Assembly (NCBI GenBank): GCA_026395675.1
Contig: JAPLYF010000049.1
Span: 1-36,277 of the forward strand
DNA: 36,277 nt
Source: Candidatus Parcubacteria bacterium
Lineage (GTDB): Bacteria > Patescibacteriota > Patescibacteriia > CAIXNZ01
Reading direction: 5' to 3'
Below are positions 1-16,759 of the stretch, one piece after another. The position numbers and the translations under genes were made by a program. The notes under the pieces were generated by a model that saw nothing but the letters and a program-made list of their open reading frames with translations, was not told the DNA's origin and did no database searches. Within the stretch, counting starts at the first letter, position 1; every line of letters starts with the position of its first letter.

Positions 1-2175
1 ATTGAAAATAAAATTCTGCAAAGTATAGTCCGCGAATATGAGCGGCTGGAAAGAAAGAATAGTTATTTGGCTGACGGATTAAGGAAAATTTTTACTGATT
101 TTAATAAAAATTACGACAGCAAGCTTTTTGAGCCAGATATAATTGATTCTGAAAAATTTGAGATAGTTGAATATGCGGTGGCAGAAGTCATAGATAATTT
201 ATATAAAACTAAAGCAGGTATCCGTTATAATTTTGACCAAATACCGGCTGATATCCTGGGCAGTATTTATGAGCAATATTTAGGCAATATCCAGAGGGAA
301 GGCGAAGCCAAGGACTCTAAAAGTAAAAGAAAGTCCCAGGGCATTTATTATACGCCTCGTTACATAGTTGATTATATAGTTAAGAATACTGTTGGCGAAT
401 ATATTAAAGATAAAAGTTTGCATGATGTACAAAAGATTAAAATTTTAGACCCTGCTTGCGGTTCCGGCTCGTTTTTAATTCGTGCTTTTGAAGAATTAGA
501 TAATTATTTGGAAAAAGAAAAAAATCAGACGCAAAAAGACGATTTTAAGGATTATTTGCGTAAAATCCAAATTTTAAGCGAAAATATTTATGGAGTTGAT
601 CTGGACGACGAGGCGGTTGAATTGACTCGCCTGAATCTGCTTTTGAAAACAGCAACCAGAAAACACCCGCTCCCTGATTTGGCCGGCAATATTAAAAATG
701 GCAATTCTTTGATTTCCGGCACTGAAGCGGAAATGAAAAAAATTTATGGTAAAAATTGGGAAGATTTGAAACCATTTGATTGGAATGAACAATTTAAAGA
801 TGTTTTTAAACAAGGTGGTTTTGATGTGGTTATTGGTAATCCTCCATATCTGAAAGAGTTAGATAATAAAAGAATTTTTGAACCCATTAAAAAATCAGAA
901 TATAAAAAATATTATCAAGGCAAAATGGATTTTTGGTATTTCTTTTTGCATAGGGCAATAGATGTAGTTAAAGAGAACGGCATTATTGGTTTTATTACGA
1001 ACAGTTACTTTTTAAAAGGCGCTGGGGCTTCAAAATTAAATGATAGGATTAAAAATGAATTGGTTATGATAAAAGCCATTGATTTAGACGACATCAAAGT
1101 TTTTGGCGATGTGAGCGGAAAACATATTATCCATATTTATCAAAAAAGAAAAGCCGAAAAAAATGATAAAACTTTATACGTTAAAGTTAATAAGGAAAAT
1201 TTTGTGGGCTTTATTGATGAGTCATTAGGTAAAAAAATACCCTATAAAGACATAATAAGTGATAGTAAAGTTAGTTTTGAATATGGTGATAAAATTAACT
1301 TTAATGACTGCATCCAACTCGGAGATATATATGATGTATCCCAAGGAGTAGTTGAAGCTAACGCCCAAATTAGTAGGAAATCTCTATTAGAATTAAAAGA
1401 CACAAAATTTAAAGCAGGAGAGGGTGTTTTTGTTTTATCCAAAAAAGAATTAAGCGGGCTTAATTTGAATTCAGATGAAAAAAACGTAATAAAAAAATAT
1501 CTAAACACAAGTGATGTCGGAAAATATTCAATTAATTTTCATAATCAATACCTTGTTTATTCTGACAAGGAAATTAAGTATAAAATAAAAAAAGGCGAGT
1601 TGCTACATTTAAAAGAACATCTTGATAAGGTAAAAAAATTTATTACTTCCTCAAATAAGCCCTACGGATTACACAGGCCGAGAGAACAAAAATATTTTGA
1701 AGAGCCTAAATTAATATGCAAAGGGATGTTTTTACATCCAGAATTTACCCTTGATCAAGATAAGTATTACATGGGTTTTTCATTTTCTGTAATAATTCAA
1801 AAAGATAAAAATTATTCCTTAAGATATTTACTTGGGATTTTAAATTCAAGATTGGGAGAATATTGGTTTAATATTAACGGCAAAAAGAGAGGTATTGGAG
1901 TTGATATTGGTGTGTTAGTATTTAGGAAATTCCCTGTTTTAACAGCAACAAAAGAGCAACAGCAAATGATTGAAAAATTAGTAGATAAAATGATTAAACT
2001 AAATCAAGAACTACAAAAAATTGACCCGATTATGGATAAGGAGAAGTATGAGAAAAAGAAAAAGGAGATTGAGGAGACGGATGGGGAGATTGATAAGTTA
2101 GTGTATAAATTATATAATCTCACGTCAGAAGAGATTAAGATTGTTGACCCAGCCGTTCGCGAACAGCTGGGTTGA
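1..2175 (+). CDS. N6-adenine DNA methyltransferase, Eco57I/TaqI-like (type II or IIG restriction-modification); 5' end lies outside the window
   Basis: The frame is open from nt 1, with no stop before the listed TTG at 67. SAM motif I ILDPACGSGSFL and catalytic motif IV VIGNPPY are present. The C-terminal specificity-like region ends in LYNLTSEEIKIV, typical of this family. Confidence 0.85.
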   Translation: MENKILQSIVREYERLERKNSYLADGLRKIFTDFNKNYDSKLFEPDIIDSEKFEIVEYAVAEVIDNLYKTKAGIRYNFDQIPADILGSIYEQYLGNIQREGEAKDSKSKRKSQGIYYTPRYIVDYIVKNTVGEYIKDKSLHDVQKIKILDPACGSGSFLIRAFEELDNYLEKEKNQTQKDDFKDYLRKIQILSENIYGVDLDDEAVELTRLNLLLKTATRKHPLPDLAGNIKNGNSLISGTEAEMKKIYGKNWEDLKPFDWNEQFKDVFKQGGFDVVIGNPPYLKELDNKRIFEPIKKSEYKKYYQGKMDFWYFFLHRAIDVVKENGIIGFITNSYFLKGAGASKLNDRIKNELVMIKAIDLDDIKVFGDVSGKHIIHIYQKRKAEKNDKTLYVKVNKENFVGFIDESLGKKIPYKDIISDSKVSFEYGDKINFNDCIQLGDIYDVSQGVVEANAQISRKSLLELKDTKFKAGEGVFVLSKKELSGLNLNSDEKNVIKKYLNTSDVGKYSINFHNQYLVYSDKEIKYKIKKGELLHLKEHLDKVKKFITSSNKPYGLHRPREQKYFEEPKLICKGMFLHPEFTLDQDKYYMGFSFSVIIQKDKNYSLRYLLGILNSRLGEYWFNINGKKRGIGVDIGVLVFRKFPVLTATKEQQQMIEKLVDKMIKLNQELQKIDPIMDKEKYEKKKKEIEETDGEIDKLVYKLYNLTSEEIKIVDPAVREQLG

Positions 2176-2218
2176 GGGTCATCCTTCGTCCCGCGGTGCG
2201 GGACTACGGATGGCAGGG
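2176..2218. repeat. GC-rich REP-like hairpin, family 1 (outer stem tcatcc/ggatgg, inner stem tcccgc/gcggga)
   Basis: Palindrome read directly. It has the same ..CCTTCG..loop..CTACGG.. architecture as copies at 6546, 6604, 6669, 6794, 21195, 26585 and 32791. Confidence 0.8.
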
Positions 2219-2253
2219 AAATAAAAACTGTTGATAAAAAGTTTGACATGTTT

Positions 2254-2283
2254 TTGGCATTATTGGGCGCATTATGTTATAAT
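2254..2283 (+). promoter_or_regulatory. Putative sigma70-like promoter (TTGGCA-18 nt-TATAAT); would give a near-leaderless mRNA for the Panacea-like gene
   Basis: Hexamers read in the sequence. The ATG at 2290 lies 6 nt after the -10 box. Confidence 0.35.
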
Positions 2284-2289
2284 AAAAAC

Positions 2290-2769
2290 ATGAATGAAGA
2301 CAAAAAAACAAAACAAATAATATCCTATATTGTGCAAAACCATGAGAATAGTTCAGTCACGACAATAATGAAGTTGTTATATTTGGTTGATTTGATTAGC
2401 GTTAAAAAAACAGGTAAAAAAATAACTGATTTTGAGTATTTAAGGTATAATTATGGTCCATTTGATAAGCAGATATATAAATATCTGGAAGCTTTGTTAG
2501 AAGAAAAAGTTATTATAAGCAAATTAGTTTATTCCTCTGAGGGGAATGAAAATATAATATATTCTCTAAATGAAGAATCGGATGATATCAATTTCAATGA
2601 AATCCAGAAAGACGAATTAGTTTTAATTGATAATTTGTTAAATGATGTTAGGGGCTATGGCGCTAAAGCTTTAACCGAAATTGCCTATAAAACAAAACCA
2701 ATGCAGGCATTGGGAGCTACCTTAGGCGGCAATGAATCAATAGGCGCAAAATTAGATTTGTCATTATAA
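2290..2769 (+). CDS. Panacea-domain (DUF4065/SocA-like) antitoxin-like protein
   Basis: The segment IMKLLYLVDLISVKKTGKKITDFEYLRYNYGPF matches the KLxKLLY...W/YxYGP signature of DUF4065. Start trimmed from the listed 2248 to the ATG at 2290 because the first 14 residues overlap the predicted promoter. The start choice is uncertain. Confidence 0.65.
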   Translation: MNEDKKTKQIISYIVQNHENSSVTTIMKLLYLVDLISVKKTGKKITDFEYLRYNYGPFDKQIYKYLEALLEEKVIISKLVYSSEGNENIIYSLNEESDDINFNEIQKDELVLIDNLLNDVRGYGAKALTEIAYKTKPMQALGATLGGNESIGAKLDLSL

Positions 2770-2773
2770 ATTT

Positions 2774-3289
2774 ATGGCTTTAAAAAATATATGGCATGGG
2801 CTTATTTTGCTGAAAGTAAAAGCCAGAAATTTATACCTAGACAGAAAATCAATTGAACAAAATACGGGAGTGCAAAAAATAAAATATAAATTAGCGGCTA
2901 ACGTTCTAAAGGATTTGCAAATATATCCTTTTTTTATTTTAAGATCGGAATTGACATGCAGCAGATATTTTGCTTTTCAAATCGATAGGGGAGATTGGCT
3001 TCAATCAAGAGGCGATTATTTAAATAAACCTTGTTCATACATTGATATCAGATGTCCTGAAATAATAGGGCAAAATGAATTATATTTAAAAATTAGGGAT
3101 AAAAGAAATTTTTTTTCAGTGGCGCGTTTAAAAGATTCTAAATATAATGAAATGGTTAATTTCGCCGAAAGAATTAAAATGACAAGCGATGTAAGGGATG
3201 AGACAAAAGGTTTGATTCTTAAAGAATTAACAGGCGATACCCAGGGGATAAATATTGATAATTTTTTGGAAAAATATAAATTAGAATAA
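2774..3289 (+). CDS. Hypothetical protein with no family recognised; candidate toxin partner of the Panacea-like gene
   Basis: 171-aa ORF starting 5 nt after the upstream stop on the same strand. No TM segment and no motif I recognise. Confidence 0.5.
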   Translation: MALKNIWHGLILLKVKARNLYLDRKSIEQNTGVQKIKYKLAANVLKDLQIYPFFILRSELTCSRYFAFQIDRGDWLQSRGDYLNKPCSYIDIRCPEIIGQNELYLKIRDKRNFFSVARLKDSKYNEMVNFAERIKMTSDVRDETKGLILKELTGDTQGINIDNFLEKYKLE

Positions 3290-3365
3290 ATTAAAAAACT
3301 CGCAAGAAAAATAAAACAAAAATTGCTTTGCCCCTTTGGGGAGGCAGTGGATTTTACTCTTTTTC

Positions 3366-3394
3366 TTGACTTTTATTAGCCGTTTTGGTAAATT
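3366..3394 (+). promoter_or_regulatory. Putative promoter (TTGACT-17 nt-TAAATT) for the AbiEi-like gene; leaderless arrangement
   Basis: Hexamers and spacing read directly. The ATG at 3401 is 6 nt after the -10 box. Confidence 0.4.
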
Positions 3395-3400
3395 GACAAT

Positions 3401-4006
3401 ATGGTCAAATTAGTGAATCAGACAATTTTTTCCTCTAAAATAAAGGGAAAAAAGCTATTTATTTTTACCGCGGCTGACATCCGCACGCTTTTTGGTATTT
3501 CTAAAGTAGCTGCAGCAGCCTTACTCCACAGATATAAGAAAAGAGGGTTTATTTTACAGGTAAAACGGGGACTTTATGTTTTTCCGGATCTTTTGCCGCC
3601 GGATGTTTATGTTGCCAACAAGCTTTACAGCCCGTCTTATATCTCGCTTGAATTTGCGTTAGCCTATCATCGGGTCATTCCAGAGACAGTTTACGAAATA
3701 ACTTCGGTTACAACAAAAGCCACTCGCCGATTTGATGTTAAAGCATTAAAGAAAATTTTTTCTTACCGCAAAATAAAAAAAACCGCTTATACCGGCTATG
3801 GCGTCCAAAAACAGAATGATATTAGTTTTTATATCGCTGATGCTGAAAAGGCATTTGTAGATGCCAATTATTTGCGGATGCGGAATAAGCAGAAGCCGAT
3901 TTCCCGCTTTGACAATGATAAAATTAACAAAGATAAAGCGCTCAAGTATGCTTATTTATTTGGCAATAAAAAACTTATTAGTATTATTAAAACAACACTT
4001 AAATAA
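3401..4006 (+). CDS. AbiEi-family (type IV toxin-antitoxin antitoxin / transcriptional regulator) protein, orphan
   Basis: N-terminal wHTH-like region FTAADIRTLFGISKVAAAALLHRYKKRGFILQVKRGLYVF, followed by SPSYISLEFALAYHRVIPE. Both are characteristic of AbiEi proteins. No AbiEii nucleotidyltransferase follows. Confidence 0.65.
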   Translation: MVKLVNQTIFSSKIKGKKLFIFTAADIRTLFGISKVAAAALLHRYKKRGFILQVKRGLYVFPDLLPPDVYVANKLYSPSYISLEFALAYHRVIPETVYEITSVTTKATRRFDVKALKKIFSYRKIKKTAYTGYGVQKQNDISFYIADAEKAFVDANYLRMRNKQKPISRFDNDKINKDKALKYAYLFGNKKLISIIKTTLK

Positions 4007-7069: not shown

Positions 7070-9979
7070 ATGAAAAAAGTAATGGTTGTAATCGCGGCTT
7101 TAACCCTGGTCTGCCTTTTGTCTACCCAGGCTTTGGCGCACCAGATTTACATCAAGAAAAATCCAACCAATGAAAGTGGCATTGAATTTGGCGTGGATAA
7201 TGCCAGCGGTTTTGTGCGCTGGCGCGCCATTGCCAAAGGATTAACCAATAACAGTCGGGGCCAAAATACTGGCTGGACAGATACGGGCAATGGCTGGTGG
7301 TATTATGATGTGTCTTCAATTACCCAAAGAGTAATGTGGCGACTGGATGGAATTGCCAACCAGAATTTTGTCATCACCTACTGGGTTTTTAAAAGTGATG
7401 GCACATGGGAATATGGTCCGCAAGTCCAGGTTACTTCTGATCAGATTCTGCCCACTGCCAGCTTTACAAACATTTACAATGGCCAGACCTTCAGCCAAGC
7501 GCAGTTTAATATTTCTGTTTCCTCAAGTGACAATTTGAGCGGCGTTGATTCTATCAGAATCTATGCCGTGGTTCCTAGCGGTAACAGCTTGAGCGGTTGG
7601 ATACCTTCTGGCATTGCCAATCAGTTTTACAAAGAATTTGCCGGCACATCCGTCAGCTATAATTTTTCAGCCCCGGCTGAAGGCAATTATACTTTCACAC
7701 TTTGGGTTAAAGACAAAGCAAGCAATATTGCCTATGAACCAGGCGGCCCAATAACAGTTATTGTTGATTTGCCTGCGCCTATTCCGCCACCACCAGCTCC
7801 ACCCAATGCGCCCAGCAATTTAAATCTGACAATCTCAGGGCAAAATATTATTGCTTCTTGGCAAGATAATTCTAGCGACGAAGACGGCTTTAACCTTTAC
7901 CGCAATGGCAGTTTATTGAAAACTCTGGCAGCGAATTCAACTTCGTTTGTTGACACTGGTTTGCAATATAACCAGAGCTATTGTTACAGCATTTCTGCCT
8001 ACAAAGGCAGCTTAAGCAGTTCTGCGATAGAAAGCTGCGCTACAATACCAGCTCCGCCTGCTCCGGATTATCATTATGCTGACAGCTTTACCTACCCCAT
8101 GTCCTGCGACAAAATCTACAGGATTGAGACCGATGCGCAAATCCCGGTCGGTGCCTGCTTTGACTATCAGCCCTTTTGCTCTCTTTTTTCCTACAGTGAT
8201 GAATGTCATCAGGGCAGCGATTTGAATCTTAAAGGAGTCAATGATTTGGGTGCGCCGGTATATGCCATTGCTAATGCCTTGGTTTGGGACTATGGCTGGA
8301 CTAGTGGCTGGGGAAATTACTTGATCTTAAGAATCCAGGCCTCTGCTGGTAAAAGTTTTAATTTATCGGACGGAACAATCGTTACTGAAATTTTCGTCCT
8401 TTATGGCCACCTTAATGAAATCAAAATCATTAAGGATAATGGTGTGATAATTGAAAAAGCCAATATTGTTAAGCAAGGCACATATGTGGCCAAAGGCTGG
8501 CAAATTGGCACTGTCGGCGACGGCAATGGCAATTTTAGCCCGCATTTGCATTTTGAAATTCGGATCAATGGCTATAGCCAGCTTGGCAATGGTTATTGGC
8601 CGGTATCAGATTTGAATTACCTAAAATATTTCGTGGACCCGATTGAGTTCATTGAAAATAATTGGCTGCCAGCCAATCGAACGCTTCAGATTATGGTGCA
8701 TGGCTATGATCGCCAATCCAGCCGTAAAGTTTTTCTGGATCTTGATCCTGCTTTGTGGCAGCGCCAGGGCAGGCAAACTGATGGTTTGCCTTTGGCAGCT
8801 GTTGGCTTGGCCAACCATATTTGGCTGACAAGTTCAGCAAAAAATACTGCTGCTTCCTGGAATTTTCATGTGCCTCAAAGCGGCGCTTATTCATTATTTC
8901 TGATTATGCCACGCTATTATGGCACGGCCAATAATGTGCTTTATACTGTCTGGCACAGCAGCCAAAAGGTTGCCAGCCCCTATGAAGTGCGTTTGAGCCA
9001 GACCAATAATAATGAGAACAAGAAAATCTATCTGGGCACCTTTGACTACTATCAGGGCTCGCACTACTCAGTTGATGTTGGTAGTTTGACCTCTGATAAT
9101 CCAGCCAAGAATGTAGCGCTTGATAGCCTGATTTTGATCTACGAAGGCGATTTGGGAACAGGCGGCGGTCCAGTTATTCCGCCAGCAGATCCGCCACCGG
9201 ACAATGAAATTAAAACTGTTAATTCAGCCGGTTCCTTAACCTTCAAATACATTGGCGCATATTCAAAGCCAGAATTACACTGCAGCGGAGGAGGCCTGAC
9301 CTGGGGAGATGCGATTTTATCAGGCGGGCTGACAGAAACGACTGTCAGTGTTATTCAATCAGAACAGGTCATCTGCAATATCTTGTTTGAAGACGGAACA
9401 TGGCTGGCTGATTCTCAAGGCCTAAAAATCGGGGAACAGCTTTTGGCTAATGACCAGCTGATTAATGCCACGCTGGATAATGGGCTAGGCGGCAGCAATC
9501 TGGTTTTTAACTTGATTGTTGACGGTCAGATTAAAACCATTAATTCCAGCGGCACCATTAACTTCACTTACGCCGGCACTTATTCCACTCCCGAATTGCA
9601 TTGCAGCGGCGGTGGTCTGGCCTGGGAAAATATAATTTTAACAGGCGGCGCCAAGCAAAATACCGCTACAGTCACTCAGTCAGGTCAAGTCATCTGCAAC
9701 ATCAAGTTTGAAGATGGAAACTGGCTGGCTGACTATTTCGGGCTCATGGCTAATCAGACGCTGTTAGTTGAAAATCAGGAAATTACAACCCTGCAGGATA
9801 ATGGCCTGGGCGGAAAAAACTTGGTTTTTAATCTGCAGCTAAATTCTGCTGCGCCGCCTGTTGGCTGCAGCCTGGATTCTAGCCAAGCAGTCTTTACCTG
9901 GGCAACCTGCCTAAATCTGCTCTTTCTTTTCTCTCCTCTCTTTTTCCTTTTGGCGCGCAAGGTAAGAAAATTTACCTAA
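7070..9979 (+). CDS. Large secreted multidomain protein with an M23 (LytM-type) metallopeptidase domain, an FN3-like domain, a 107-aa tandem repeat and a C-terminal hydrophobic anchor
   Basis: Signal peptide MKKVMVVIAALTLVCLLSTQALA. M23 motifs HQGSD (HxxxD) and PHLHFE (HxH). FN3-like segment PSNLNLTISGQNIIASWQDNSSDEDGFNLYRNG. C-terminal TM segment followed by RKVRK. Confidence 0.8.
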   Translation: MKKVMVVIAALTLVCLLSTQALAHQIYIKKNPTNESGIEFGVDNASGFVRWRAIAKGLTNNSRGQNTGWTDTGNGWWYYDVSSITQRVMWRLDGIANQNFVITYWVFKSDGTWEYGPQVQVTSDQILPTASFTNIYNGQTFSQAQFNISVSSSDNLSGVDSIRIYAVVPSGNSLSGWIPSGIANQFYKEFAGTSVSYNFSAPAEGNYTFTLWVKDKASNIAYEPGGPITVIVDLPAPIPPPPAPPNAPSNLNLTISGQNIIASWQDNSSDEDGFNLYRNGSLLKTLAANSTSFVDTGLQYNQSYCYSISAYKGSLSSSAIESCATIPAPPAPDYHYADSFTYPMSCDKIYRIETDAQIPVGACFDYQPFCSLFSYSDECHQGSDLNLKGVNDLGAPVYAIANALVWDYGWTSGWGNYLILRIQASAGKSFNLSDGTIVTEIFVLYGHLNEIKIIKDNGVIIEKANIVKQGTYVAKGWQIGTVGDGNGNFSPHLHFEIRINGYSQLGNGYWPVSDLNYLKYFVDPIEFIENNWLPANRTLQIMVHGYDRQSSRKVFLDLDPALWQRQGRQTDGLPLAAVGLANHIWLTSSAKNTAASWNFHVPQSGAYSLFLIMPRYYGTANNVLYTVWHSSQKVASPYEVRLSQTNNNENKKIYLGTFDYYQGSHYSVDVGSLTSDNPAKNVALDSLILIYEGDLGTGGGPVIPPADPPPDNEIKTVNSAGSLTFKYIGAYSKPELHCSGGGLTWGDAILSGGLTETTVSVIQSEQVICNILFEDGTWLADSQGLKIGEQLLANDQLINATLDNGLGGSNLVFNLIVDGQIKTINSSGTINFTYAGTYSTPELHCSGGGLAWENIILTGGAKQNTATVTQSGQVICNIKFEDGNWLADYFGLMANQTLLVENQEITTLQDNGLGGKNLVFNLQLNSAAPPVGCSLDSSQAVFTWATCLNLLFLFSPLFFLLARKVRKFT
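9209..9850 (+). repeat. Two tandem 321-nt (107-aa) coding repeats inside the M23 protein
   Basis: IKTVNSAGSLTFKYIGAYSKPELHCSGGGLTW...NLVFNL compared with IKTINSSGTINFTYAGTYSTPELHCSGGGLAW...NLVFNL. Confidence 0.85.
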
Positions 9980-11110: not shown

Positions 11111-11386
11111 ATGAAAGTTTCTAAAAATGCTTTAGCTGATAAGCTAGTGTATATGACAAGCTTTGTCATCCCTTTGATTTTCCTGCCGCAAATCTATGTT
11201 TTGGTCCAAAGCAAAACTACGGCAGGTATATCTCTTCTAATGCTGATTTTTTCAGCTCTGGTTCAGGCAATCTACTTATTTAAAGCAATTGTCAGCCATC
11301 AGCGAGCTCTAACTGTTTCAGTGCTATCCAGTCTTATCCCGCTTAATGGCGTAATAATACTGGTTATTTACTATCGTTATTTCTAA
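11111..11386 (+). CDS. SemiSWEET / PQ-loop family small transporter
   Basis: 91 aa with three predicted TM helices and the PQ motif in TM1 (LIFLPQIYVLVQSKTTAGIS). AGGAGG RBS upstream. Confidence 0.65.
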   Translation: MKVSKNALADKLVYMTSFVIPLIFLPQIYVLVQSKTTAGISLLMLIFSALVQAIYLFKAIVSHQRALTVSVLSSLIPLNGVIILVIYYRYF

Positions 11387-11570
11387 AAGCCCTTTGTTGG
11401 GCTTTTTTGTTTAGGCAAATATTGCATTCCGTGGCGGCTTTCCCCATAAAAAAATCTCAATCAATGACTGGGATTTTGGTTTTATAGGATTGACGTAAAA
11501 ATAAATTCGTGCTAAGATTGGCTATTGTTTGAATGCATAAATTATGCTATAATTTTAATAATTATTTTTT

Positions 11571-12137
11571 ATGGAAAAAGTCGATTATAATATTGAATAC
11601 GCTCACATTTATGCTGATGAGGTTTTTCAGCAGGAACATATTGACAGCCTGAATGTTTTGGAATTAATTTTGCGCATTTTAAAAAATGACAACAAAAGCT
11701 ACAATTTGAATATTTTAATTGACGAATACCATCCGGAAACAAAAAGTCTAGATATTGATGATTTTTTAAGTAAATTGAAATTCCGTGGCTACACGCCTGA
11801 TCATTTATATTTAGAGTCAGAATTGCATAAAGATGTGAATTTACTCCTGGAGAATTTAACTAATGAAAAATGCTTGCGAGATTACGAGCGTTATTTTCAA
11901 AGAACTGGCAAATCGCCATGCTCATTTTTAGTCGCCAATTGGTATTTAAAAAGATTGGGTGTTTTACCTGTTGGCAATCTCAAAAAATTATCTAATGAAG
12001 AAAAACCCTTTTTGGGCAATAAAATAATAAATATTTTGGATAGAAAATATAAGCCCAATGAAGACAAAGCTTTAGAGCTGATAAAAAATAGCAAATTTGA
12101 GCACCTCTTAGATAATATAATTTATTATTATTACTAA
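11571..12137 (+). CDS. Hypothetical protein
   Basis: 188-aa ORF with an extended -10 (tgctataat) upstream and a hairpin terminator downstream. No recognisable motif. Confidence 0.55.
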   Translation: MEKVDYNIEYAHIYADEVFQQEHIDSLNVLELILRILKNDNKSYNLNILIDEYHPETKSLDIDDFLSKLKFRGYTPDHLYLESELHKDVNLLLENLTNEKCLRDYERYFQRTGKSPCSFLVANWYLKRLGVLPVGNLKKLSNEEKPFLGNKIINILDRKYKPNEDKALELIKNSKFEHLLDNIIYYYY

Positions 12138-12188
12138 ATAAAAAGAAAAAAGGCCCGTCTTATGAAAAGGCGGGTCTTTTAAATTTTG

Positions 12189-13127
12189 TTATTTTTTGCA
12201 GGCGCAATTTAAGCCAGTAAAAATTGTTGGGTCTTGAGTCTGGCGATAATGCTCAATTGCCACCAATATTTCATGATCGCATTCGCCGCAATTATGAGGC
12301 TTGGCAATCGGCGGCGGATCGTCGTCAAATGAGCCAATGCGCACCGGGCCAAGATGTGCTGTCCTTTGAATTACTTCAATGATGCTCCAGAGTGTTGGCG
12401 GTTGGAATTCACCGCTCTGGTAAAGTTCATGAAGCAATGTCCCTTCCTGGACAAAGGCGCAGGACAGAGAAACTTCATCCACGCCAACCTGGAAGCAATA
12501 TTCAATGCTTTTGACAGCATCTTCAATTGCTTCTTTTTCATTGAGGCAATGGGGCTTAAGAAAAACATAGGCAAAGGTCTGAAAGCCGAAGACCTTACAA
12601 AGCTTGACCGCATTTTCAAATGTTGCTTTGGTTAAACCCTTATGTAGGCATTCATTTCTGACTTTGTCATCAGCTGATTCCAGGCCTAAAGCGATTTCTA
12701 GCTCTTTGTTGCCAATGGCATTTTTGTAAAGTTGGAGCTTTGCTTCAGTCACGAATTCTGCCCGGCTTTCCACCATTATTTTTTTAATGGTCGGATGTCG
12801 GCGCACGAAGTTTAGAATGGCCAGCTGAGTTTTTAGCGGAATTTCTTTGTCGCTCAAGAAACTGCCGCCGTTGTAGATGACCATGATTTCAGGTCTGGCT
12901 TTGCGAATCAGGAATCTTGCCCACAGGAAAATTAGCATGAAAACAAAGTGCGGATAGAGCTTGCCGCCAAAAGTGTACTTGTAAGTGGACTGGTTAAAGC
13001 CGCACATGGTGCAGCCGCCAGTTTTTTTATACCACTCGCAGCCAGCGCCCGGCAGTTCCAGCACCCAGCGGTCAACTAATTTTTGCCAAAATGGCTCAAA
13101 GACCTTATCAATGAACGAAAAATCCAT
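12189..13127 (-). CDS. Radical SAM-like Fe-S protein with a Cx8CxxC cluster motif (COG1244/TIGR01210, RaSEA-like)
   Basis: GCEWYKKTGGCTMCGF near the N-terminus, a TIM-barrel-like core and a C-terminal Cys cluster (HNCGECDH...CAC). GGAGG RBS on the - strand. Confidence 0.5.
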   Translation of the reverse strand: MDFSFIDKVFEPFWQKLVDRWVLELPGAGCEWYKKTGGCTMCGFNQSTYKYTFGGKLYPHFVFMLIFLWARFLIRKARPEIMVIYNGGSFLSDKEIPLKTQLAILNFVRRHPTIKKIMVESRAEFVTEAKLQLYKNAIGNKELEIALGLESADDKVRNECLHKGLTKATFENAVKLCKVFGFQTFAYVFLKPHCLNEKEAIEDAVKSIEYCFQVGVDEVSLSCAFVQEGTLLHELYQSGEFQPPTLWSIIEVIQRTAHLGPVRIGSFDDDPPPIAKPHNCGECDHEILVAIEHYRQTQDPTIFTGLNCACKK

Positions 13128-13292: not shown

Positions 13293-13739
13293 ATGAAAAA
13301 AAAGTTGATTCTGTATATTGTTTGTTTTTCACTGGCTTTGCTGGCAGGTGAGCAAAATGTTCCGAGTAATGAGCTCGAAGAACAAATTTTGTCATACAAA
13401 TCAGTAGGCATAGTTATCTCAAAGGAAGAATATTGTCAGGATTATCTGGCATATGCTTCTCAAAGAGAATATTTTCATTGCGGTTTAGCTTCAGAACCGG
13501 ATGATTGCCATGCCTATGTGATAAGGATGCTAAAATTATGTTTAAAAGTGCAAGGATTGAAGCCAAGCGATGAAAATGTAAAAGGAGTCCTGGCAAAGTT
13601 CCTTAATGAAGACCTCTTCTGTGAATTTTTGCAAAAGAAAATTAAAGAGGTCAACTCTGAATCTGATAACGATGCTATTAACCTTTTAAAATCGCAATTT
13701 GAGATTGCAATGAAAAAAAAGGTTAATTGCGCAAAATAA
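13293..13739 (+). CDS. Secreted hypothetical protein, Cys-containing
   Basis: Signal-like N-terminus MKKKLILYIVCFSLALLAG, AAGGAGG RBS, and a terminator at 13748. Confidence 0.6.
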   Translation: MKKKLILYIVCFSLALLAGEQNVPSNELEEQILSYKSVGIVISKEEYCQDYLAYASQREYFHCGLASEPDDCHAYVIRMLKLCLKVQGLKPSDENVKGVLAKFLNEDLFCEFLQKKIKEVNSESDNDAINLLKSQFEIAMKKKVNCAK

Positions 13740-13747
13740 ATAAATTT

Positions 13748-13774
13748 ACCCTGATAATTTCAGGGTATTTTTTT
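13748..13774 (+). terminator. Intrinsic terminator (accctga/tcagggt plus T-tract)
   Basis: Read directly. Confidence 0.7.
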
Positions 13775-13783
13775 ATACAACTA

Positions 13784-13812
13784 TTGACTAGGCCAAAAAT
13801 TTATGCTATTAT
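13784..13812 (+). promoter_or_regulatory. Putative promoter (TTGACT-17 nt-TATTAT)
   Basis: Hexamers and spacing read directly, upstream of the 13853 gene. Confidence 0.45.
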
Positions 13813-13852
13813 GACTTATTAAAATTTGCACCTTGAAAGGAGGTGAAAACAA

Positions 13853-14647
13853 GTGAAAAAGAAGCAGATGCTAAAGAAAAATTTGGCAAAGCATTCTAAA
13901 TCGCAGAATTTTTCTTCTGCTACCAATTCCAGACAAATACAGAAAACCCTGCGTAAAACAAGAGTCAAGCATTTGTGGGCTATTGTTATAGGCATACTTA
14001 CAATCGGCATTATTGCCGCAATTATTATGATTTCAAATAAGCAGGCGAACAAAGCAAGAGCCTATACTAAATTGCCACTGGAAGGCCAGGCCGCAGTTAA
14101 TAGATTCATGCAATTGCTTGCCATACTGCCTGATGATAATGCGCGCAATAACCTTCTGGAGCTGATAAACCATAAGGGTCTGAAAGTATCTCTCTATCGG
14201 AGTGGTGCAATGCAATTTGACGCCAAGAGAGGCAAAATAGATTTTAATCCAGTGATATTTTCTAAACCCGATGGTTATACCTGGGCATACCTAGTGCATG
14301 AAAACAGGCATATCGAGGATTGGCTTGGTAAGCATGAATCTGGCAAGATGTATGCCCCTTGCGAATTGGAACGCTACGCTTCGTATGAATGCAAGATAGA
14401 ATACTGGGCTGCTGAATACCGCGCTTCTTTGCAGCAGGCAATTTTTCTTAAGCAACATAATTTGGTATGGACGATGCCAGCGGGGCCATTTGTAAACAAC
14501 CGCTTAATTTTTGAGAAATATAGCAGCCAAATGGCCGCCCTCATTTTTGTAAAGGAAAATTACTACGCAGATAAATCGTATTCTCCCGATCTGCTGGCAG
14601 TTTTTCCTGAATTCTATAATAAAAAGCTGGCTGAAATAAGCCAGTGA
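13853..14647 (+). CDS. Membrane-anchored protein with an HExxH motif (putative zinc metalloprotease)
   Basis: GTG start after AAGGAGGTG. One N-terminal TM helix (HLWAIVIGILTIGIIAAIIMI). Motif LVHENRHIEDW. Confidence 0.5.
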   Translation: MKKKQMLKKNLAKHSKSQNFSSATNSRQIQKTLRKTRVKHLWAIVIGILTIGIIAAIIMISNKQANKARAYTKLPLEGQAAVNRFMQLLAILPDDNARNNLLELINHKGLKVSLYRSGAMQFDAKRGKIDFNPVIFSKPDGYTWAYLVHENRHIEDWLGKHESGKMYAPCELERYASYECKIEYWAAEYRASLQQAIFLKQHNLVWTMPAGPFVNNRLIFEKYSSQMAALIFVKENYYADKSYSPDLLAVFPEFYNKKLAEISQ

Positions 14648-14870
14648 AAATTTAAAAGCACTGATTGCAAAATTAGTGCTTTTTTATCCCCAGAAAAATT
14701 ATGGCCTTGTTATAAAATTATAACACTTTTTAAATTAGATGATTTATCCTATAATTATTCAAAATTTTGAGTTAATAAAAGTTTTCATCTAAGGACTTTT
14801 AACGGAAATTTATAATAAAAACGTTTTACATTTAATAGGTTAGAGTTATGATAATGTTATAGCATGTCCA

Positions 14871-14899
14871 TTGACATTTGACAGTAGTTTTGCTAAGTT
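14871..14899 (+). promoter_or_regulatory. Putative promoter (TTGACA-17 nt-TAAGTT) for the rSAM-peptide operon
   Basis: Hexamers and spacing read directly. Confidence 0.4.
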
Positions 14900-14936
14900 A
14901 AAGTATTAAATTGGACATTGAAAAGAAAGGAGAAAG

Positions 14937-16103
14937 ATGATGCAATCTTTTGTCTGCTCGAAATTTTTAGGCAAGTATTTAATTGCCAGCCGTTTTGATA
15001 AAAGAGGGCTAGTAATTAGTCAGAATATCTTTTCGCAGTTATTATTGCTGGCTCAAAATAATTCTTACATTACCGAATCAGTCATTGAATTATTTGGTAA
15101 GTTAGGATTTGAAGTCACTAAAACGCAAAAGATAAATGACATAGTCCTGGTAAAACAACCATGGCCATATAGTTTTGGCCGAGCTTCTTATGAGATTACT
15201 GAAAAATGTAATTATCGCTGTCAACATTGTTATTTAGGTAATAAATCCGCAGGAAAAAAATTGACTCTGTCTGACAAAAAGAAAATTATTGAATTGGTCC
15301 ATAAATCCGGCTGTTTGTGGCTGCAATTGACAGGTGGCGAGCCGTTTCTGGATAAAGATTTTATTGAGATTTATTCCTTAGCTCATTCTCTCGGGTTATT
15401 GGTCACAATCTCAAGCAATGGTTCTCTTCTTTCTCCAGAAATTAAAGAAGTATTAAAAAATTACCCACCTTACCGTTTGACTATTAGTATGTATGGTGCA
15501 AGTAATACCTCGTATGAGGCATTAACGCAAATAACCGGCTCTTATCATGATTTTACCTCTGCTTTAAAATGGCTTGAGAATCAAAGGATAAGAGTTAGAT
15601 TAAACATTATACAGACAAAGTATAATGCTCATGAAATCGAGGAAATGAAAAAGATAGCCAGAGAATTTGGGTTTGAGCATATTATCTATTCTTCGCTCAT
15701 TCCAACTCTTGATGGCAAAGATTCTCCATTATCAATCAGCTGCCAAGATGAAGATTGTAATGAAAAGAAAGAGTCCAGTGTAAATTATATACCTTGTCAG
15801 GCTGGTATAAATTCTTTTCATATTGATTCTTCAGGGCAAGTAAGCATTTGTAAAATGGCCAGACAATTAAATTGTGATTTATCTTTAGATCATGATATAA
15901 TTGTCGAAAGATTAAAAATTTTTTCCAGCCAGCTACTTGAGTCCCCATCAATATGTAGCGATTGTCAGCATCGAAAATCCTGTTCTATTTGTCCGCCTGT
16001 ATTCAGGTTGTACTCTCAATGCGGAAATATATCCGCAGCCTGTAAAATCCGGCAAAAAAAAGAAAGGAGGTCAGATCATGAAGCCAAAAAACTTATCATT
16101 TGA
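14937..16103 (+). CDS. Radical SAM enzyme with a C-terminal SPASM domain (peptide-modifying maturase type)
   Basis: Canonical CNYRCQHCY (CxxxCxxC) and GGEPF. SPASM pattern CQAG-x-GQVSIC (Cx12Gx4C), then CSDCQHRKSCSIC. About 80 aa N-terminal extension ahead of the core. Confidence 0.85.
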   Translation: MMQSFVCSKFLGKYLIASRFDKRGLVISQNIFSQLLLLAQNNSYITESVIELFGKLGFEVTKTQKINDIVLVKQPWPYSFGRASYEITEKCNYRCQHCYLGNKSAGKKLTLSDKKKIIELVHKSGCLWLQLTGGEPFLDKDFIEIYSLAHSLGLLVTISSNGSLLSPEIKEVLKNYPPYRLTISMYGASNTSYEALTQITGSYHDFTSALKWLENQRIRVRLNIIQTKYNAHEIEEMKKIAREFGFEHIIYSSLIPTLDGKDSPLSISCQDEDCNEKKESSVNYIPCQAGINSFHIDSSGQVSICKMARQLNCDLSLDHDIIVERLKIFSSQLLESPSICSDCQHRKSCSICPPVFRLYSQCGNISAACKIRQKKERRSDHEAKKLII

Positions 16104-16188
16104 TCCGAATGAAGTTGAGTTGGTTAATCTTGATGATATGGAAGCCATGTGCGCTTGTTCATCAGGAGATGATCAACCCCAAAATTAA
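16078..16188 (+). CDS. 36-aa candidate RiPP precursor peptide, not listed in the ORF track as a separate gene: MKPKNLSFDPNEVELVNLDDMEAMCACSSGDDQPQN
   Basis: ATG lies 7 nt after AGGAGG. The start is 26 nt inside the rSAM 3' end in another frame. Acidic leader-like N-terminus and a Cys-containing C-terminus. A terminator follows directly. Confidence 0.6.
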   Translation: MKPKNLSFDPNEVELVNLDDMEAMCACSSGDDQPQN

Positions 16189-16215
16189 AAAACTGGCAGC
16201 AGGAGAATAAAATAT

Positions 16216-16251
16216 TCTGGCTATTGTCTGTTTGATAATAGCCAGATTTTT
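16216..16251 (+). terminator. Intrinsic terminator (tctggctatt/aatagccaga, 10-bp stem, T-tract) closing the rSAM-peptide unit
   Basis: Read directly. Confidence 0.75.
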
Positions 16252-16285
16252 ATTATAATAAGATTAAGGAGTTTAATAATAATCT

Positions 16286-16759
16286 ATGCAAGAAAATATT
16301 AATATAAAATTAGTTGCTGACCTTAATGACAGACAATTAAATCAGCTTGTTTCTATTTTGAATTATGACCAAAAATTGCGACAGAGTTTATGTAGTCAAA
16401 AAAAAGAAATAACAGTCAAGACGTTCAACGCCAAAAATAATGCTTGGGCAAAAAATAACCAAGCCAAATTGTACGCTATAATGAACAAAACTCACGCTAT
16501 AGGCATGATTTCATTAAGCCATATTAATTTAAAGAATAAAAAAGCCAATATTGGATATTGGTTAACAAGTAGGCACTGGGGGAAGGGTATTACTAGCAAA
16601 GCGTTTAAACAAATATTAGCTATTGCCAAAGATAATAAGATAAAATATCTTACCTGTACTATACCTAAAGACAATATAGCTTCTTTGGCTATCTGGCAAA
16701 AATTTCAGGCAATTATAAAGCAAAAAGGAGAGAATATAATACCGATTATTAGGTTGTGA
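16286..16759 (+). CDS. GNAT-family N-acetyltransferase (RimJ/RimL-like)
   Basis: GYWLTSRHWGKGITSKAFKQIL matches acetyl-CoA binding motif A (R/QxxGxG/A). Size is typical. Confidence 0.7.
   Translation: MQENINIKLVADLNDRQLNQLVSILNYDQKLRQSLCSQKKEITVKTFNAKNNAWAKNNQAKLYAIMNKTHAIGMISLSHINLKNKKANIGYWLTSRHWGKGITSKAFKQILAIAKDNKIKYLTCTIPKDNIASLAIWQKFQAIIKQKGENIIPIIRL

What the first reader, a model, noticed from the sequence alone, without database searches (positions are those of the whole stretch)
14871..16759. Candidate RiPP cassette: radical-SAM/SPASM maturase overlapping an unannotated 36-aa Cys-bearing precursor ORF
The 388-aa enzyme has the canonical CNYRCQHCY cluster and a full SPASM signature (Cx12Gx4C, then CxxCx5CxxC). 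That combination is typical of peptide-modifying rSAM enzymes. Its last 26 nt overlap, in another frame, the start of a short ORF (16078-16188: MKPKNLSFDPNEVELVNLDDMEAMCACSSGDDQPQN). The ORF track merges this ORF into a longer shadow frame. The ATG sits 7 nt after AGGAGG, and a 10-bp-stem terminator follows at 16216, so the two genes form a closed unit behind a predicted promoter at 14871. The peptide has an acidic leader-like half and a core with two Cys, including CSSGD. That is a Cys-X3-Asp spacing, the motif cross-linked by PapB-type ranthipeptide thioether synthases. About 80 residues precede the rSAM core and could be a leader-recognition element. No transporter or leader peptidase is in the operon. 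A membrane HExxH protein upstream and a GNAT downstream are separately transcribed neighbours that might or might not participate. The chemical class cannot be assigned from sequence alone.
Basis: partly seen in the sequence, partly recalled or inferred. Interest (0 to 1): 0.8.

Follow-up and report, generated by a model that had tools for sequence, protein, structure and literature searches.

The report
Unnamed radical-SAM peptide-maturation cassette
A radical-SAM enzyme gene overlaps a real, strongly conserved 36-residue precursor-peptide gene, and the pair belongs to a widespread but unnamed and apparently unstudied modified-peptide family found in Streptomyces-type bacteria and in ultra-small CPR bacteria.

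Summary
The 388-aa radical-SAM ORF (14937-16103) overlaps by 26 nt a 36-aa ORF (16078-16188) with its own AGGAGG, and a strong terminator follows (16216-16246).

In 79 of the 80 best genome loci, and in every close metagenome locus, a short ORF directly follows the enzyme. It ends in C-x-C-x-x-(G/S)-D-D-x-P-X-stop, preceded by a (V/I)-x-(D/N)-L-D-x-x-x-E leader. Against a 78%-identical relative, peptide residues 11-36 show 4 synonymous and 0 non-synonymous changes.

No NCBIfam or Pfam model covers the peptide or names the enzyme. All 468 peptide clusters are labelled "hypothetical protein". I found no paper on the family.

The closest solved structures are the peptide maturases SkfB, SuiB and CteB. 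The SPASM assignment rests on seven conserved Cys and on fold, not on the Pfam model. A leader-binding (RRE) N-domain is plausible but unproven.

Elsewhere the cassette has a third gene: a ~300-aa GNAT-domain protein, an APH-like kinase, or both. The kinase occurs only where Tyr follows the invariant Pro. The window lacks both partners; an unrelated resident RimL-type GNAT sits in that slot. The upstream HExxH protein is not linked.

A Cys-Asp thioether is the favoured chemistry but is untested.

The parts
14825..14883 (+). Candidate promoter region of the cassette. It holds TTTACA-16-TATGAT (14825-14852) and two overlapping TTGACA hexamers (14871-14883) that have a poor -10.
   Evidence: (10/12 match; such matches are frequent in this AT-rich DNA) and a direct reading. 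Weak evidence.
14928..14932 (+). Ribosome-binding site (AGGAG) 4 nt before the rSAM start codon.
   Evidence: Read from the sequence.
14937..16103 (+). Radical-SAM peptide maturase, 388 aa, from an unnamed family.
   Evidence: AF2 model pLDDT 92. Foldseek gives SkfB, SuiB and CteB as the best full-length matches. dN/dS against L161 is 0.18.
14937..15152 (+). N-terminal domain (residues 1-72) with beta-beta-beta-alpha-alpha(-alpha) order. Putative leader-recognition (RRE-like) domain.
   Evidence: Secondary structure. There is no PqqD Pfam hit. The fold search of the isolated domain is not significant, with only weak hits to RRE-bearing proteins. Inferred, not shown.
15207..15230 (+). CX3CX2C motif (C91, C95, C98) that binds the radical-SAM [4Fe-4S] cluster.
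   Evidence: Invariant in 58 homologs.
15795..16043 (+). C-terminal Cys-rich auxiliary-cluster domain, a divergent SPASM type. The conserved Cys are C287, C305, C340, C343, C349, C352 and C369.
   Evidence: Conservation. The Pfam SPASM model is not matched. The whole protein aligns with SPASM/twitch maturases.
16065..16070 (+). AGGAGG ribosome-binding site of the precursor gene, inside the 3' end of the rSAM gene.
   Evidence: Conserved in L161.
16078..16149 (+). Leader part of the precursor (residues 1-24). It holds the family motif V-E-L-V-N-L-D-D-M-E.
   Evidence: Alignment A3.
16150..16188 (+). Core part of the precursor (residues 25-36, CACSSGDDQPQN) plus the stop codon.
   Evidence: C-x-C-x-x-(G/S)-D-D-x-P is conserved in 116 loci. 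Against L161, residues 11-36 show 0 non-synonymous and 4 synonymous changes.
16216..16246 (+). Intrinsic terminator that closes the two-gene unit.
   Evidence: searches (13 pairs plus T-run; -25.2 kcal/mol, z -6.2), conserved in L161.
16232..16259 (+). Best promoter-like site of the region (TTGATA-16-TATAAT, 11/12). It overlaps the descending terminator arm and precedes the GNAT gene.
   Evidence: In L161 the -35 reads TTGACA.
16286..16759 (+). RimL-type GNAT acetyltransferase, 157 aa. It lies in the position of the family's third gene. Its participation is uncertain.
   Evidence: Pfam Acetyltransf_3. It follows the cassette in 3 loci. Orthologs of 68-73% identity occur without the cassette. 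No similarity to the canonical ~305-aa partner.

Best explanation
This is a genuine two-gene cassette for a ribosomally made, post-translationally modified peptide, from a family with no name.

Shown:
- The enzyme and the 36-aa precursor gene are co-conserved.
- The two genes overlap, so translation is probably coupled.
- They are closed off by a strong terminator.

Inferred mechanism:
- The enzyme's N-terminal ~72-residue domain binds the acidic leader (..VELVNLDDMEAM).
- The C91/C95/C98 cluster cleaves SAM to a 5'-deoxyadenosyl radical.
- That radical abstracts a hydrogen from the C-terminal core CACSSGDDQPQN.
- The C-terminal seven-Cys domain holds auxiliary Fe-S clusters. One of them probably has an open site that binds a substrate Cys, as in CteB.

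My preferred product is an intramolecular thioether. The link would run from C27 to D31 (Cys-X3-Asp), possibly with a second link from C25 to D32. This would give a small (bi)cyclic C-terminal knot at -2 Da per link.

Leader removal and export are not encoded in the unit. Other family members add a GNAT-domain protein and/or an APH-like kinase, and the kinase probably acts on the Tyr after the invariant Pro. This window has neither partner and has Gln at that position.

Sub-confidences:
- Real precursor/maturase pair: about 0.9.
- Cys-to-Asp thioether as the chemistry: about 0.35-0.4.
For: Conservation of the peptide:
- It is present in 79 of the 80 best genome loci (62 by a strict motif, 17 more by reading the remaining loci).
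- It is present in all close metagenome and Logan loci. That makes 116 loci in all.
- The loci span Actinomycetota and Patescibacteria.
- It is absent next to the more distant rSAMs.

Selection:
- Peptide residues 11-36 have dN 0 and dS 0.35.
- Enzyme dN/dS is 0.18.

Conserved core residues are two Cys, two Asp and an invariant Pro.

Enzyme:
- CX3CX2C plus seven conserved C-terminal Cys.
- No conserved eighth Cys upstream.
- The best PDB hit by sequence is the thioether-former SkfB, E 2e-17.
- The best by fold are SkfB, SuiB and CteB over 400-427 columns, E 4e-14 to 5e-12.
- N-domain topology is beta3-alpha2/3.

Expression signals: own RBS and terminator.

Cys-X3-Asp as a thioether motif (PapB, freyrasin) and substrate-Cys ligation of an auxiliary cluster (CteB) come from established knowledge of those enzymes, not from tests made here.
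Against: - No profile-level membership in any characterised maturase family. All NCBIfam scores are far below the cutoffs.
- Pfam SPASM and PqqD are not matched in 0 of 58 members.
- The isolated N-domain has no significant structural neighbour.
- The Cys position relative to the Asp pair is not fixed. One-Cys variants read G-C-G-D-D and G-C-N-D-D.
- Either Asp can be replaced: S-D, D-N, N-D, E-D. A single fixed Cys-X3-Asp link therefore cannot hold for every member.
- There is no protease or exporter, either here or conserved in the family.
- This copy lacks the family's usual third gene.
Confidence: 0.75

Rival explanations
1. The precursor/maturase pair is the same, but the chemistry differs. 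Options include epimerisation, a C-C or C-O cross-link involving Pro or the residue after it, or oxidation of Cys. The Cys and Asp residues would then serve as metal or cluster ligands in the product or during catalysis.
For: - SuiB (Lys-Trp C-C link) matches the fold as well as the thioether formers do, and the epimerase EpeE/YydG also appears.
- The Cys-to-Asp spacing varies in one-Cys variants, and neither Asp is strictly invariant.
- The only invariant residue is Pro.
Against: - The residue after Pro varies (Y, H, F, W, N, Q), so it is an unlikely universal cross-link partner.
- Cys plus an acidic residue is the only side-chain pair kept throughout.
- The nearest sequence relative in the PDB is a thioether former.
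Confidence: 0.3
2. The peptide is a sacrificial scaffold for a small molecule or cofactor that is cut from its extreme C-terminus, in the manner of mycofactocin or PQQ. The GNAT and kinase partners would act on the released small molecule, or protect the cell from it.
For: - The conserved core sits at the very C-terminus.
- MftC and PqqE are among the moderate HMM hits.
- No exporter is conserved.
- The partners are of the GNAT and APH types that commonly modify small molecules. They replace one another between loci: 41 kinase only, 25 GNAT only, 12 both.
- In the window's lineage an unrelated GNAT fills the slot.
Against: - No peptidase of the MftE type and no further tailoring enzymes are conserved.
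- MftC and PqqE scores are far below the cutoffs: 71 against 265 and 50 against 381.
- The strict kinase-Tyr link (70 of 70 loci) fits direct action on the peptide better.
Confidence: 0.1
3. The window's copy is a decaying or orphaned remnant. It has lost the family's third gene and the aromatic residue after Pro, and it no longer makes a functional product.
For: - No homolog of the ~305-aa GNAT partner or of the kinase exists anywhere in the 36-kb window.
- The core ends in P-Q-N rather than P-aromatic.
- In a third related contig the rSAM is called as two ORFs, of 133 and 238 aa.
Against: - All family-invariant residues of the enzyme are kept.
- dN/dS is 0.18 for the enzyme and dN is 0 for the peptide core, against a relative with dS around 0.35-0.7.
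- The RBS and terminator are conserved.
Confidence: 0.08
4. The enzyme is not a peptide maturase at all. It would be an anaerobic-sulfatase-maturase-like or cofactor-synthesis SPASM enzyme, and the small ORF would be a chance frame.
For: The top NCBIfam hits by score are AhbD and NirJ-type heme enzymes, over the rSAM core only. anSME appears among the fold matches.
Against: - Those scores are 93 and 82 bits against cutoffs of 500 and cover only residues 84-262.
- The small ORF is conserved in 116 loci with a fixed C-terminal motif and shows 0 non-synonymous changes in 26 codons.
- 468 peptide clusters were retrieved by profile.
- No sulfatase or heme genes lie nearby.
Confidence: 0.02

Closest known systems
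Ranthipeptide systems (PapB/PapA freyrasin; CteB/CteA thermocellin, SCIFF-type)
   Same: - A radical-SAM enzyme with an N-terminal leader-binding-type domain and a C-terminal multi-Cys auxiliary-cluster domain.
- An adjacent short precursor with an acidic leader and a Cys-bearing C-terminal core.
- Cys-X3-Asp spacing in the core (C27-S-S-G-D31), the motif PapB cross-links.
- CteB is among the three best full-length fold matches.
   Different: - The PapB HMM scores 46 bits against a cutoff of 340.
- The Pfam SPASM model is not matched.
- The last Cys spacing is CxxC.
- There is one short core with at most two Cys, rather than six repeats (freyrasin) or six Cys in 45 residues (SCIFF).
- The partner genes (GNAT-domain protein, APH-like kinase) differ.
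- The host range is Actinomycetota and CPR rather than Firmicutes.
SkfB/SkfA (sporulation killing factor) and other sactipeptide maturases (AlbA, StsB)
   Same: - SkfB is the best PDB match both by sequence (E 2e-17, extending into the C-terminal domain) and by fold.
- Both have the order leader-binding N-domain, rSAM core, C-terminal auxiliary-cluster domain.
- Thioether formation from Cys is the shared candidate chemistry.
   Different: - The SkfB, AlbA and StsB family HMMs are far below cutoff: 44 against 300, 58 against 850, 67 against 625.
- SkfB has a twitch domain with one auxiliary cluster. Here seven conserved Cys suggest two.
- No immunity, export or protease genes of the skf or sbo-alb type are present.
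Mycofactocin (MftC/MftA) and PQQ (PqqE/PqqA) cofactor pathways
   Same: - A short precursor whose conserved residues lie at the extreme C-terminus.
- An rSAM with a C-terminal auxiliary-cluster domain.
- Wide occurrence in Actinomycetota.
- No dedicated exporter.
   Different: - HMM scores are below cutoff: 71 against 265 and 50 against 381.
- There are no MftB/D/E/F or PqqB/C/D partners.
- The core motif C-x-C-x-x-G-D-D-x-P is unrelated to G-V-Y or E-x3-Y.
Tailored RiPPs with kinases or acetyltransferases (lasso-peptide C-terminal kinases, class V lanthipeptide LxmK, GNAT N-acetylation in goadsporin and microviridin)
   Same: At family level, a kinase and/or a GNAT protein lies immediately after the precursor gene. 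The kinase tracks strictly with one residue of the core, Tyr after Pro.
   Different: - These are only weak hits to APH (E 4e-4) and LxmK (E 0.03).
- No lyase or cyclase partner is present.
- The window itself has no kinase.
- Its GNAT is an unrelated RimL type that also occurs without the cassette.

Membership tests
Radical SAM superfamily | CX3CX2C cluster motif and a match to the rSAM core profile. | tested here: met
   C91-x3-C95-x2-C98. PF04055 scores 65.2 bits against a cutoff of 29.5. The motif is invariant in 58 homologs.
SPASM-domain rSAM enzymes | Match to the SPASM profile (Pfam PF13186). | tested here: not met
   0 of 58 family members hit PF13186 at E<=1. The window protein also has no hit.
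SPASM-domain rSAM enzymes | Seven-Cys motif CX9-15GX4C ... CX2CX5CX3C ... C for two auxiliary clusters. | tested here: met
   C287-x12-G300-x4-C305, C340-x2-C343-x5-C349-x2-C352, C369. All are at least 90% conserved. The last spacing is X2, not X3. Cluster binding itself cannot be tested here.
RRE-dependent RiPP maturases | N-terminal PqqD-like winged-helix leader-recognition element. | tested here: inconclusive
   The beta3-alpha2/3 order fits, and the full-length fold matches are RRE-bearing SkfB, SuiB and CteB. However, there is no PqqD Pfam hit. The isolated domain has no significant PDB neighbour: best E is 0.48, and RRE proteins appear only at E 1.2-3.4.
RiPP biosynthetic cassette (general) | A short precursor gene with a leader and a core, co-conserved with the modifying enzyme. 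| tested here: met
   116 loci carry the peptide directly after the enzyme. The leader and core motifs are conserved. There is purifying selection.
RiPP biosynthetic cassette (general) | The peptide is actually modified by the enzyme. | not testable with these tools
   Needs co-expression and mass spectrometry.
PapB-family ranthipeptide maturases (NCBIfam NF047865) | Score above the curated cutoff of the family model. | tested here: not met
   46.1 bits against a cutoff of 340.
Ranthipeptides (chemical class) | Thioether from Cys sulfur to a non-alpha carbon of the partner residue. A Cys-X3-Asp motif for the PapB type. | not testable with these tools
   The Cys-X3-Asp motif is present (C27..D31) and is kept in most two-Cys members. 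The linkage can only be shown by MS/NMR.
Sactipeptide maturases (AlbA NF012164, SkfB TIGR04403, StsB NF045574) | Score above the curated cutoff. | tested here: not met
   58.5 against 850, 44.1 against 300, 66.9 against 625.
Anaerobic sulfatase-maturating enzymes | A sulfatase substrate with a C/S-x-P/A-x-R motif, and closest similarity to anSME. | tested here: not met
   No sulfatase lies in the neighbourhood. The adjacent peptide lacks the motif. anSME ranks below SkfB, SuiB and CteB by fold and is not in the sequence hit list.
Mycofactocin maturase MftC (TIGR03962) / PqqE (TIGR02109) | Score above the curated cutoff, with a cognate precursor (..GVY or E-x3-Y). | tested here: not met
   70.9 against 265 and 49.7 against 381. 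The peptide core is unrelated.

The most novel reading that the evidence does not exclude
The cassette would represent a new, uncharacterised RiPP class shared by Actinomycetota (hundreds of Streptomyces and relatives) and CPR/Patescibacteria. Its defining features would be:
- a tiny C-terminal C-x-C-x-x-G-D-D-x-P-X core, cross-linked in a way not seen in known classes, for example nested Cys-Asp links or a link involving the invariant Pro;
- interchangeable tailoring or immunity by Tyr-directed phosphorylation or GNAT acylation.

In genome-reduced CPR cells it could be a rare example of a secreted effector towards the host.
Probability: 0.3. Interest if true: 0.75.

Novelty: new variant of a known kind. 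Interest (0 to 1): 0.55.

Why it matters
- The family is large: at least 468 peptide clusters, many of them in cultivable Streptomyces. It carries no name or model and, as far as I could search, no publication.
- It has a very short and sharply conserved core, which makes it an easy target for co-expression and mass spectrometry.
- The strict kinase-Tyr association gives a ready prediction about tailoring.
- The swap between kinase, GNAT-domain protein and, in this lineage, an unrelated GNAT raises a clear question: are these tailoring enzymes or self-protection enzymes?
- Modified-peptide clusters are seldom described in CPR bacteria. A confirmed one would add to the little that is known of their chemistry.
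- On the practical side, the precursor gene is missed or merged by ORF callers here. A family model would fix annotation in hundreds of genomes.

Tried and rejected
Searches that found nothing or were not significant:
- NCBIfam and Pfam searches of the window peptide and five relatives found no family.
- Pfam on 58 enzyme homologs, to find SPASM or PqqD, gave none.
- A separate AF2 model of the N-domain with a PDB fold search gave nothing significant.
- BLASTP of the window's two GNATs against the canonical ~305-aa partner showed no similarity.
- tblastn of eight canonical GNAT partners and six kinases against the whole window found nothing.
- Six literature searches by core sequences, locus tags and keywords found no paper on the family. 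One candidate paper was read and does not mention it.

Ideas rejected:
- HExxH protein as a cassette member. It is absent upstream in L161. The orf148-HExxH pair occurs without the cassette in L166. It shares no cluster with the neighbours of 80 loci.
- An anSME-like reading (see rivals).

Other:
It was repeated with a reordered alignment.
- The 'Gammaproteobacteria' and 'Melainabacteria' labels of two MAG loci (L016, L039) were not taken as evidence for further phyla. Mis-binning was not ruled out.
Full report
**1. The observation**

The region reads as described.
- A 388-aa ORF (14937-16103, +) carries CNYRCQHCY.
- A 36-aa ORF (16078-16188, +; MKPKNLSFDPNEVELVNLDDMEAMCACSSGDDQPQN) starts 7 nt after AGGAGG. 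It overlaps the last 26 nt of the enzyme gene in another frame.
- The mechanical ORF list merges it into an 83-aa TTG frame.
- A terminator of 13 pairs plus a T-run lies at 16216-16246. It folds at -25.2 kcal/mol, z = -6.2 against shuffles.

Two details need correcting.
- The site at 14871 is two overlapping TTGACA hexamers with no good -10. The scan prefers 14825-14852, and such matches are common in this AT-rich DNA.
- The 'full SPASM signature' is a Cys pattern only (see section 3).

**2. Is the small ORF real?**

The enzyme has about 66 full-length relatives at 33-78% identity. Most come from Patescibacteria-type metagenomes and Actinomycetota. One mis-called homolog already ended in ..DVCSCSAGDDNPF.

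- In the 80 best loci from species-representative genomes, 62 have a short ORF straight after the enzyme that matches C-x-C-x-x-G-(D/E)-(D/E).
- Reading the other 16 loci by eye found variants in all but one. Examples are ..CSCAASDDNPY..CSCSSSSDVPYQ and the one-Cys forms ..GCGDDNPYQ and ..GCNDDNPYR.
- The close metagenome and Logan loci also have the ORF. The more distant rSAMs (E above about 1e-48) do not.
- In all, 116 loci carry the peptide.
- The shared plan is a leader with (V/I)-x-(V/I/L)-(V/I)-(D/N)-L-D-x-x-x-E, then C-x-C-x-x-(G/S)-D-D-x-P-X and 0-2 more residues. Pro is invariant. The two Cys and the two Asp are at least 90% conserved.

The nearest relative is L161, with an enzyme 78% identical.
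- The first ten peptide codons overlap the enzyme's tail. They differ at six residues.
- Residues 11-36 are identical, with four synonymous changes. That gives dN 0 and dS 0.35.
- The enzyme has dN/dS 0.18.
- The RBS and the terminator are also conserved.

**3. The enzyme**

- Pfam finds only the rSAM core, residues 85-238.
- The best NCBIfam scores are about 93 bits against cutoffs of 265-850. They cover only the core, so the enzyme belongs to no curated family.
- None of 58 homologs hits Pfam SPASM or PqqD.
- Seven C-terminal Cys (C287, C305, C340, C343, C349, C352, C369) are conserved in the SPASM-like order. The last spacing is CxxC.
- C271 and C277 of the window protein are not conserved in the family.
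- An AF2 model built on 58 sequences is confident, pLDDT 92.
- Its best PDB matches over the whole length are SkfB, SuiB and CteB (E 4e-14 to 5e-12, 400-427 columns). These are all leader-dependent peptide maturases. They rank ahead of BlsE, MoaA, viperin, PqqE and anSME.
- By sequence profile, SkfB is also first, at E 2e-17.
- The N-terminal 72 residues fold as three strands followed by two or three helices. That is the order of a leader-recognition element.
- Modelled alone, however, this domain finds no significant neighbour. RRE-bearing proteins (McbB, TbiB1, CteB, ThcOx) appear only at E 1.2-3.4. I treat the RRE as plausible, not shown.

**4. The neighbourhood**

I clustered all ORFs around the 80 genome loci.
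- Only two gene families are linked to the pair, and both lie directly downstream on the same strand.
- One is a ~290-315-aa protein with a C-terminal GNAT domain. The other is a ~270-aa protein with a weak APH-type kinase match.
- Of the 80 loci, 41 have the kinase, 25 the GNAT protein, 12 both and 3 neither.
- All other CPR loci have the GNAT protein.
- No protease or exporter is conserved. The other recurrent neighbours are actinomycete regulators.

The window has neither partner anywhere in its 36 kb.
- A 157-aa RimL-type GNAT (16286-16759) sits in that slot. It lies behind the terminator and has the region's best promoter-like site.
- It is unrelated to the canonical partner by BLASTP.
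- It follows the cassette in three related contigs.
- Its 68-73%-identical orthologs lie in related genomes without the cassette. In one case the ortholog lies next to the same PQ-loop, 188-aa and 313-aa genes that the window has at 11111-13127.
- It is therefore a resident lineage gene. Whether it has been recruited is open.

The upstream orf148-HExxH pair also occurs without the cassette and is absent upstream in L161. I do not count it as part of the system.

**5. How it most likely works**

Shown:
- a co-conserved enzyme-precursor pair under purifying selection;
- overlapping genes;
- a closing terminator.

Inferred:
- The N-domain binds the leader.
- Radical chemistry acts on the C-terminal core, with help from auxiliary clusters.

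The side chains kept throughout the family are Cys and Asp. The nearest relatives include two thioether formers. No eighth Cys is conserved, so one auxiliary cluster may have a free site for a substrate Cys, as reported for CteB. I therefore favour a Cys-to-Asp thioether, with C27-X3-D31 as in PapB substrates and perhaps C25 to D32 as well. I give this about 0.35-0.4.

The variable Cys position in one-Cys members and the replaceable Asp residues argue against one fixed link for all members. Other chemistries (about 0.3) and a cofactor-like fate (about 0.1) remain open.

**6. Comparison with known systems, and novelty**

- In build, this is an RRE-type rSAM maturase cassette of the sactipeptide/ranthipeptide kind.
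- It is not a member of the PapB, SkfB, AlbA, StsB, MftC or PqqE families by their curated models.
- The peptide has no model.
- A profile of the peptide retrieves 468 clusters. Every named one is 'hypothetical protein', and none has a Pfam domain.
- Six full-text searches found no description.
- The library lacks much of the subscription chemistry literature, so prior characterisation cannot be excluded.
- I rate it a new variant of a known kind.

**7. Verdict**

- The enzyme family, the core motif and the partner genes are new as far as I can tell.
- The general logic is familiar to anyone who mines rSAM peptide clusters.
- This copy is a minimal two-gene version.
- Interest: 0.55.

Noticed in passing
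Family loci L001-L164 (not in the window): Every locus with the APH-like kinase downstream has Tyr directly after the invariant Pro of the core: 70 of 70 loci, and 38 of 38 unique core/partner combinations. Loci without the kinase have H, F, W, N, Q or, rarely, Y. Fisher p is about 8e-12, not corrected for phylogeny. This suggests the kinase phosphorylates that Tyr.
   Followed up: partly
window 12189-13127 (-): A second radical-SAM protein scores 213.9 bits on the archaeosine-biosynthesis RaSEA model TIGR01210, just above its cutoff of 212.15. That is an unexpected label for what looks like a CPR bacterium. A 313-aa counterpart lies in the same gene block in L165.
   Followed up: no
window 16232-16259 and 16216-16246: The best sigma-70-like promoter match of the region (TTGATA-16-TATAAT, 11/12) has its -35 inside the descending arm of the cassette's terminator. 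Termination of the peptide operon and initiation of the GNAT gene therefore share the same DNA. The arrangement is kept in L161.
   Followed up: partly
L166 8759-8953, next to homologs of window 13293-14647: In a related genome without the cassette, an 82-aa fragment of the 157-aa GNAT (65% identity to residues 93-157) lies just upstream of the orf148-HExxH pair. A full copy lies 3.3 kb further upstream. This hints at rearrangement or duplication around the site where the cassette sits in the window.
   Followed up: no
window 67-4006: A likely defence or toxin-antitoxin patch. It holds a PglX/BREX-like DNA methyltransferase (67-2175, far below the family cutoffs), a SocA/Panacea antitoxin-domain protein (2248-2769) and an AbiEi-type regulator (3401-4006).
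   Followed up: no
window 7070-9979 (+): A 969-aa ORF with an M23 peptidase domain and a Golvesin C-terminal domain lies in a stretch of raised G+C: 0.42-0.46 against about 0.35 elsewhere.
   Followed up: no
L165 1451-3046 and L163 10243-13134: Related CPR contigs carry other putative peptide-modification cassettes. L165 has two small ORFs (35 and 40 aa) ahead of a 439-aa rSAM/SPASM protein. L163 has an MvdD-type ATP-grasp gene near another rSAM/SPASM gene.
   Followed up: no
Contig of P0251/P0024 (JGI 3300075153, no DNA available): In a third cassette+GNAT locus the rSAM is called as two ORFs of 133 and 238 aa. This could be a frameshift, a pseudogene or a sequencing error.
   Followed up: no
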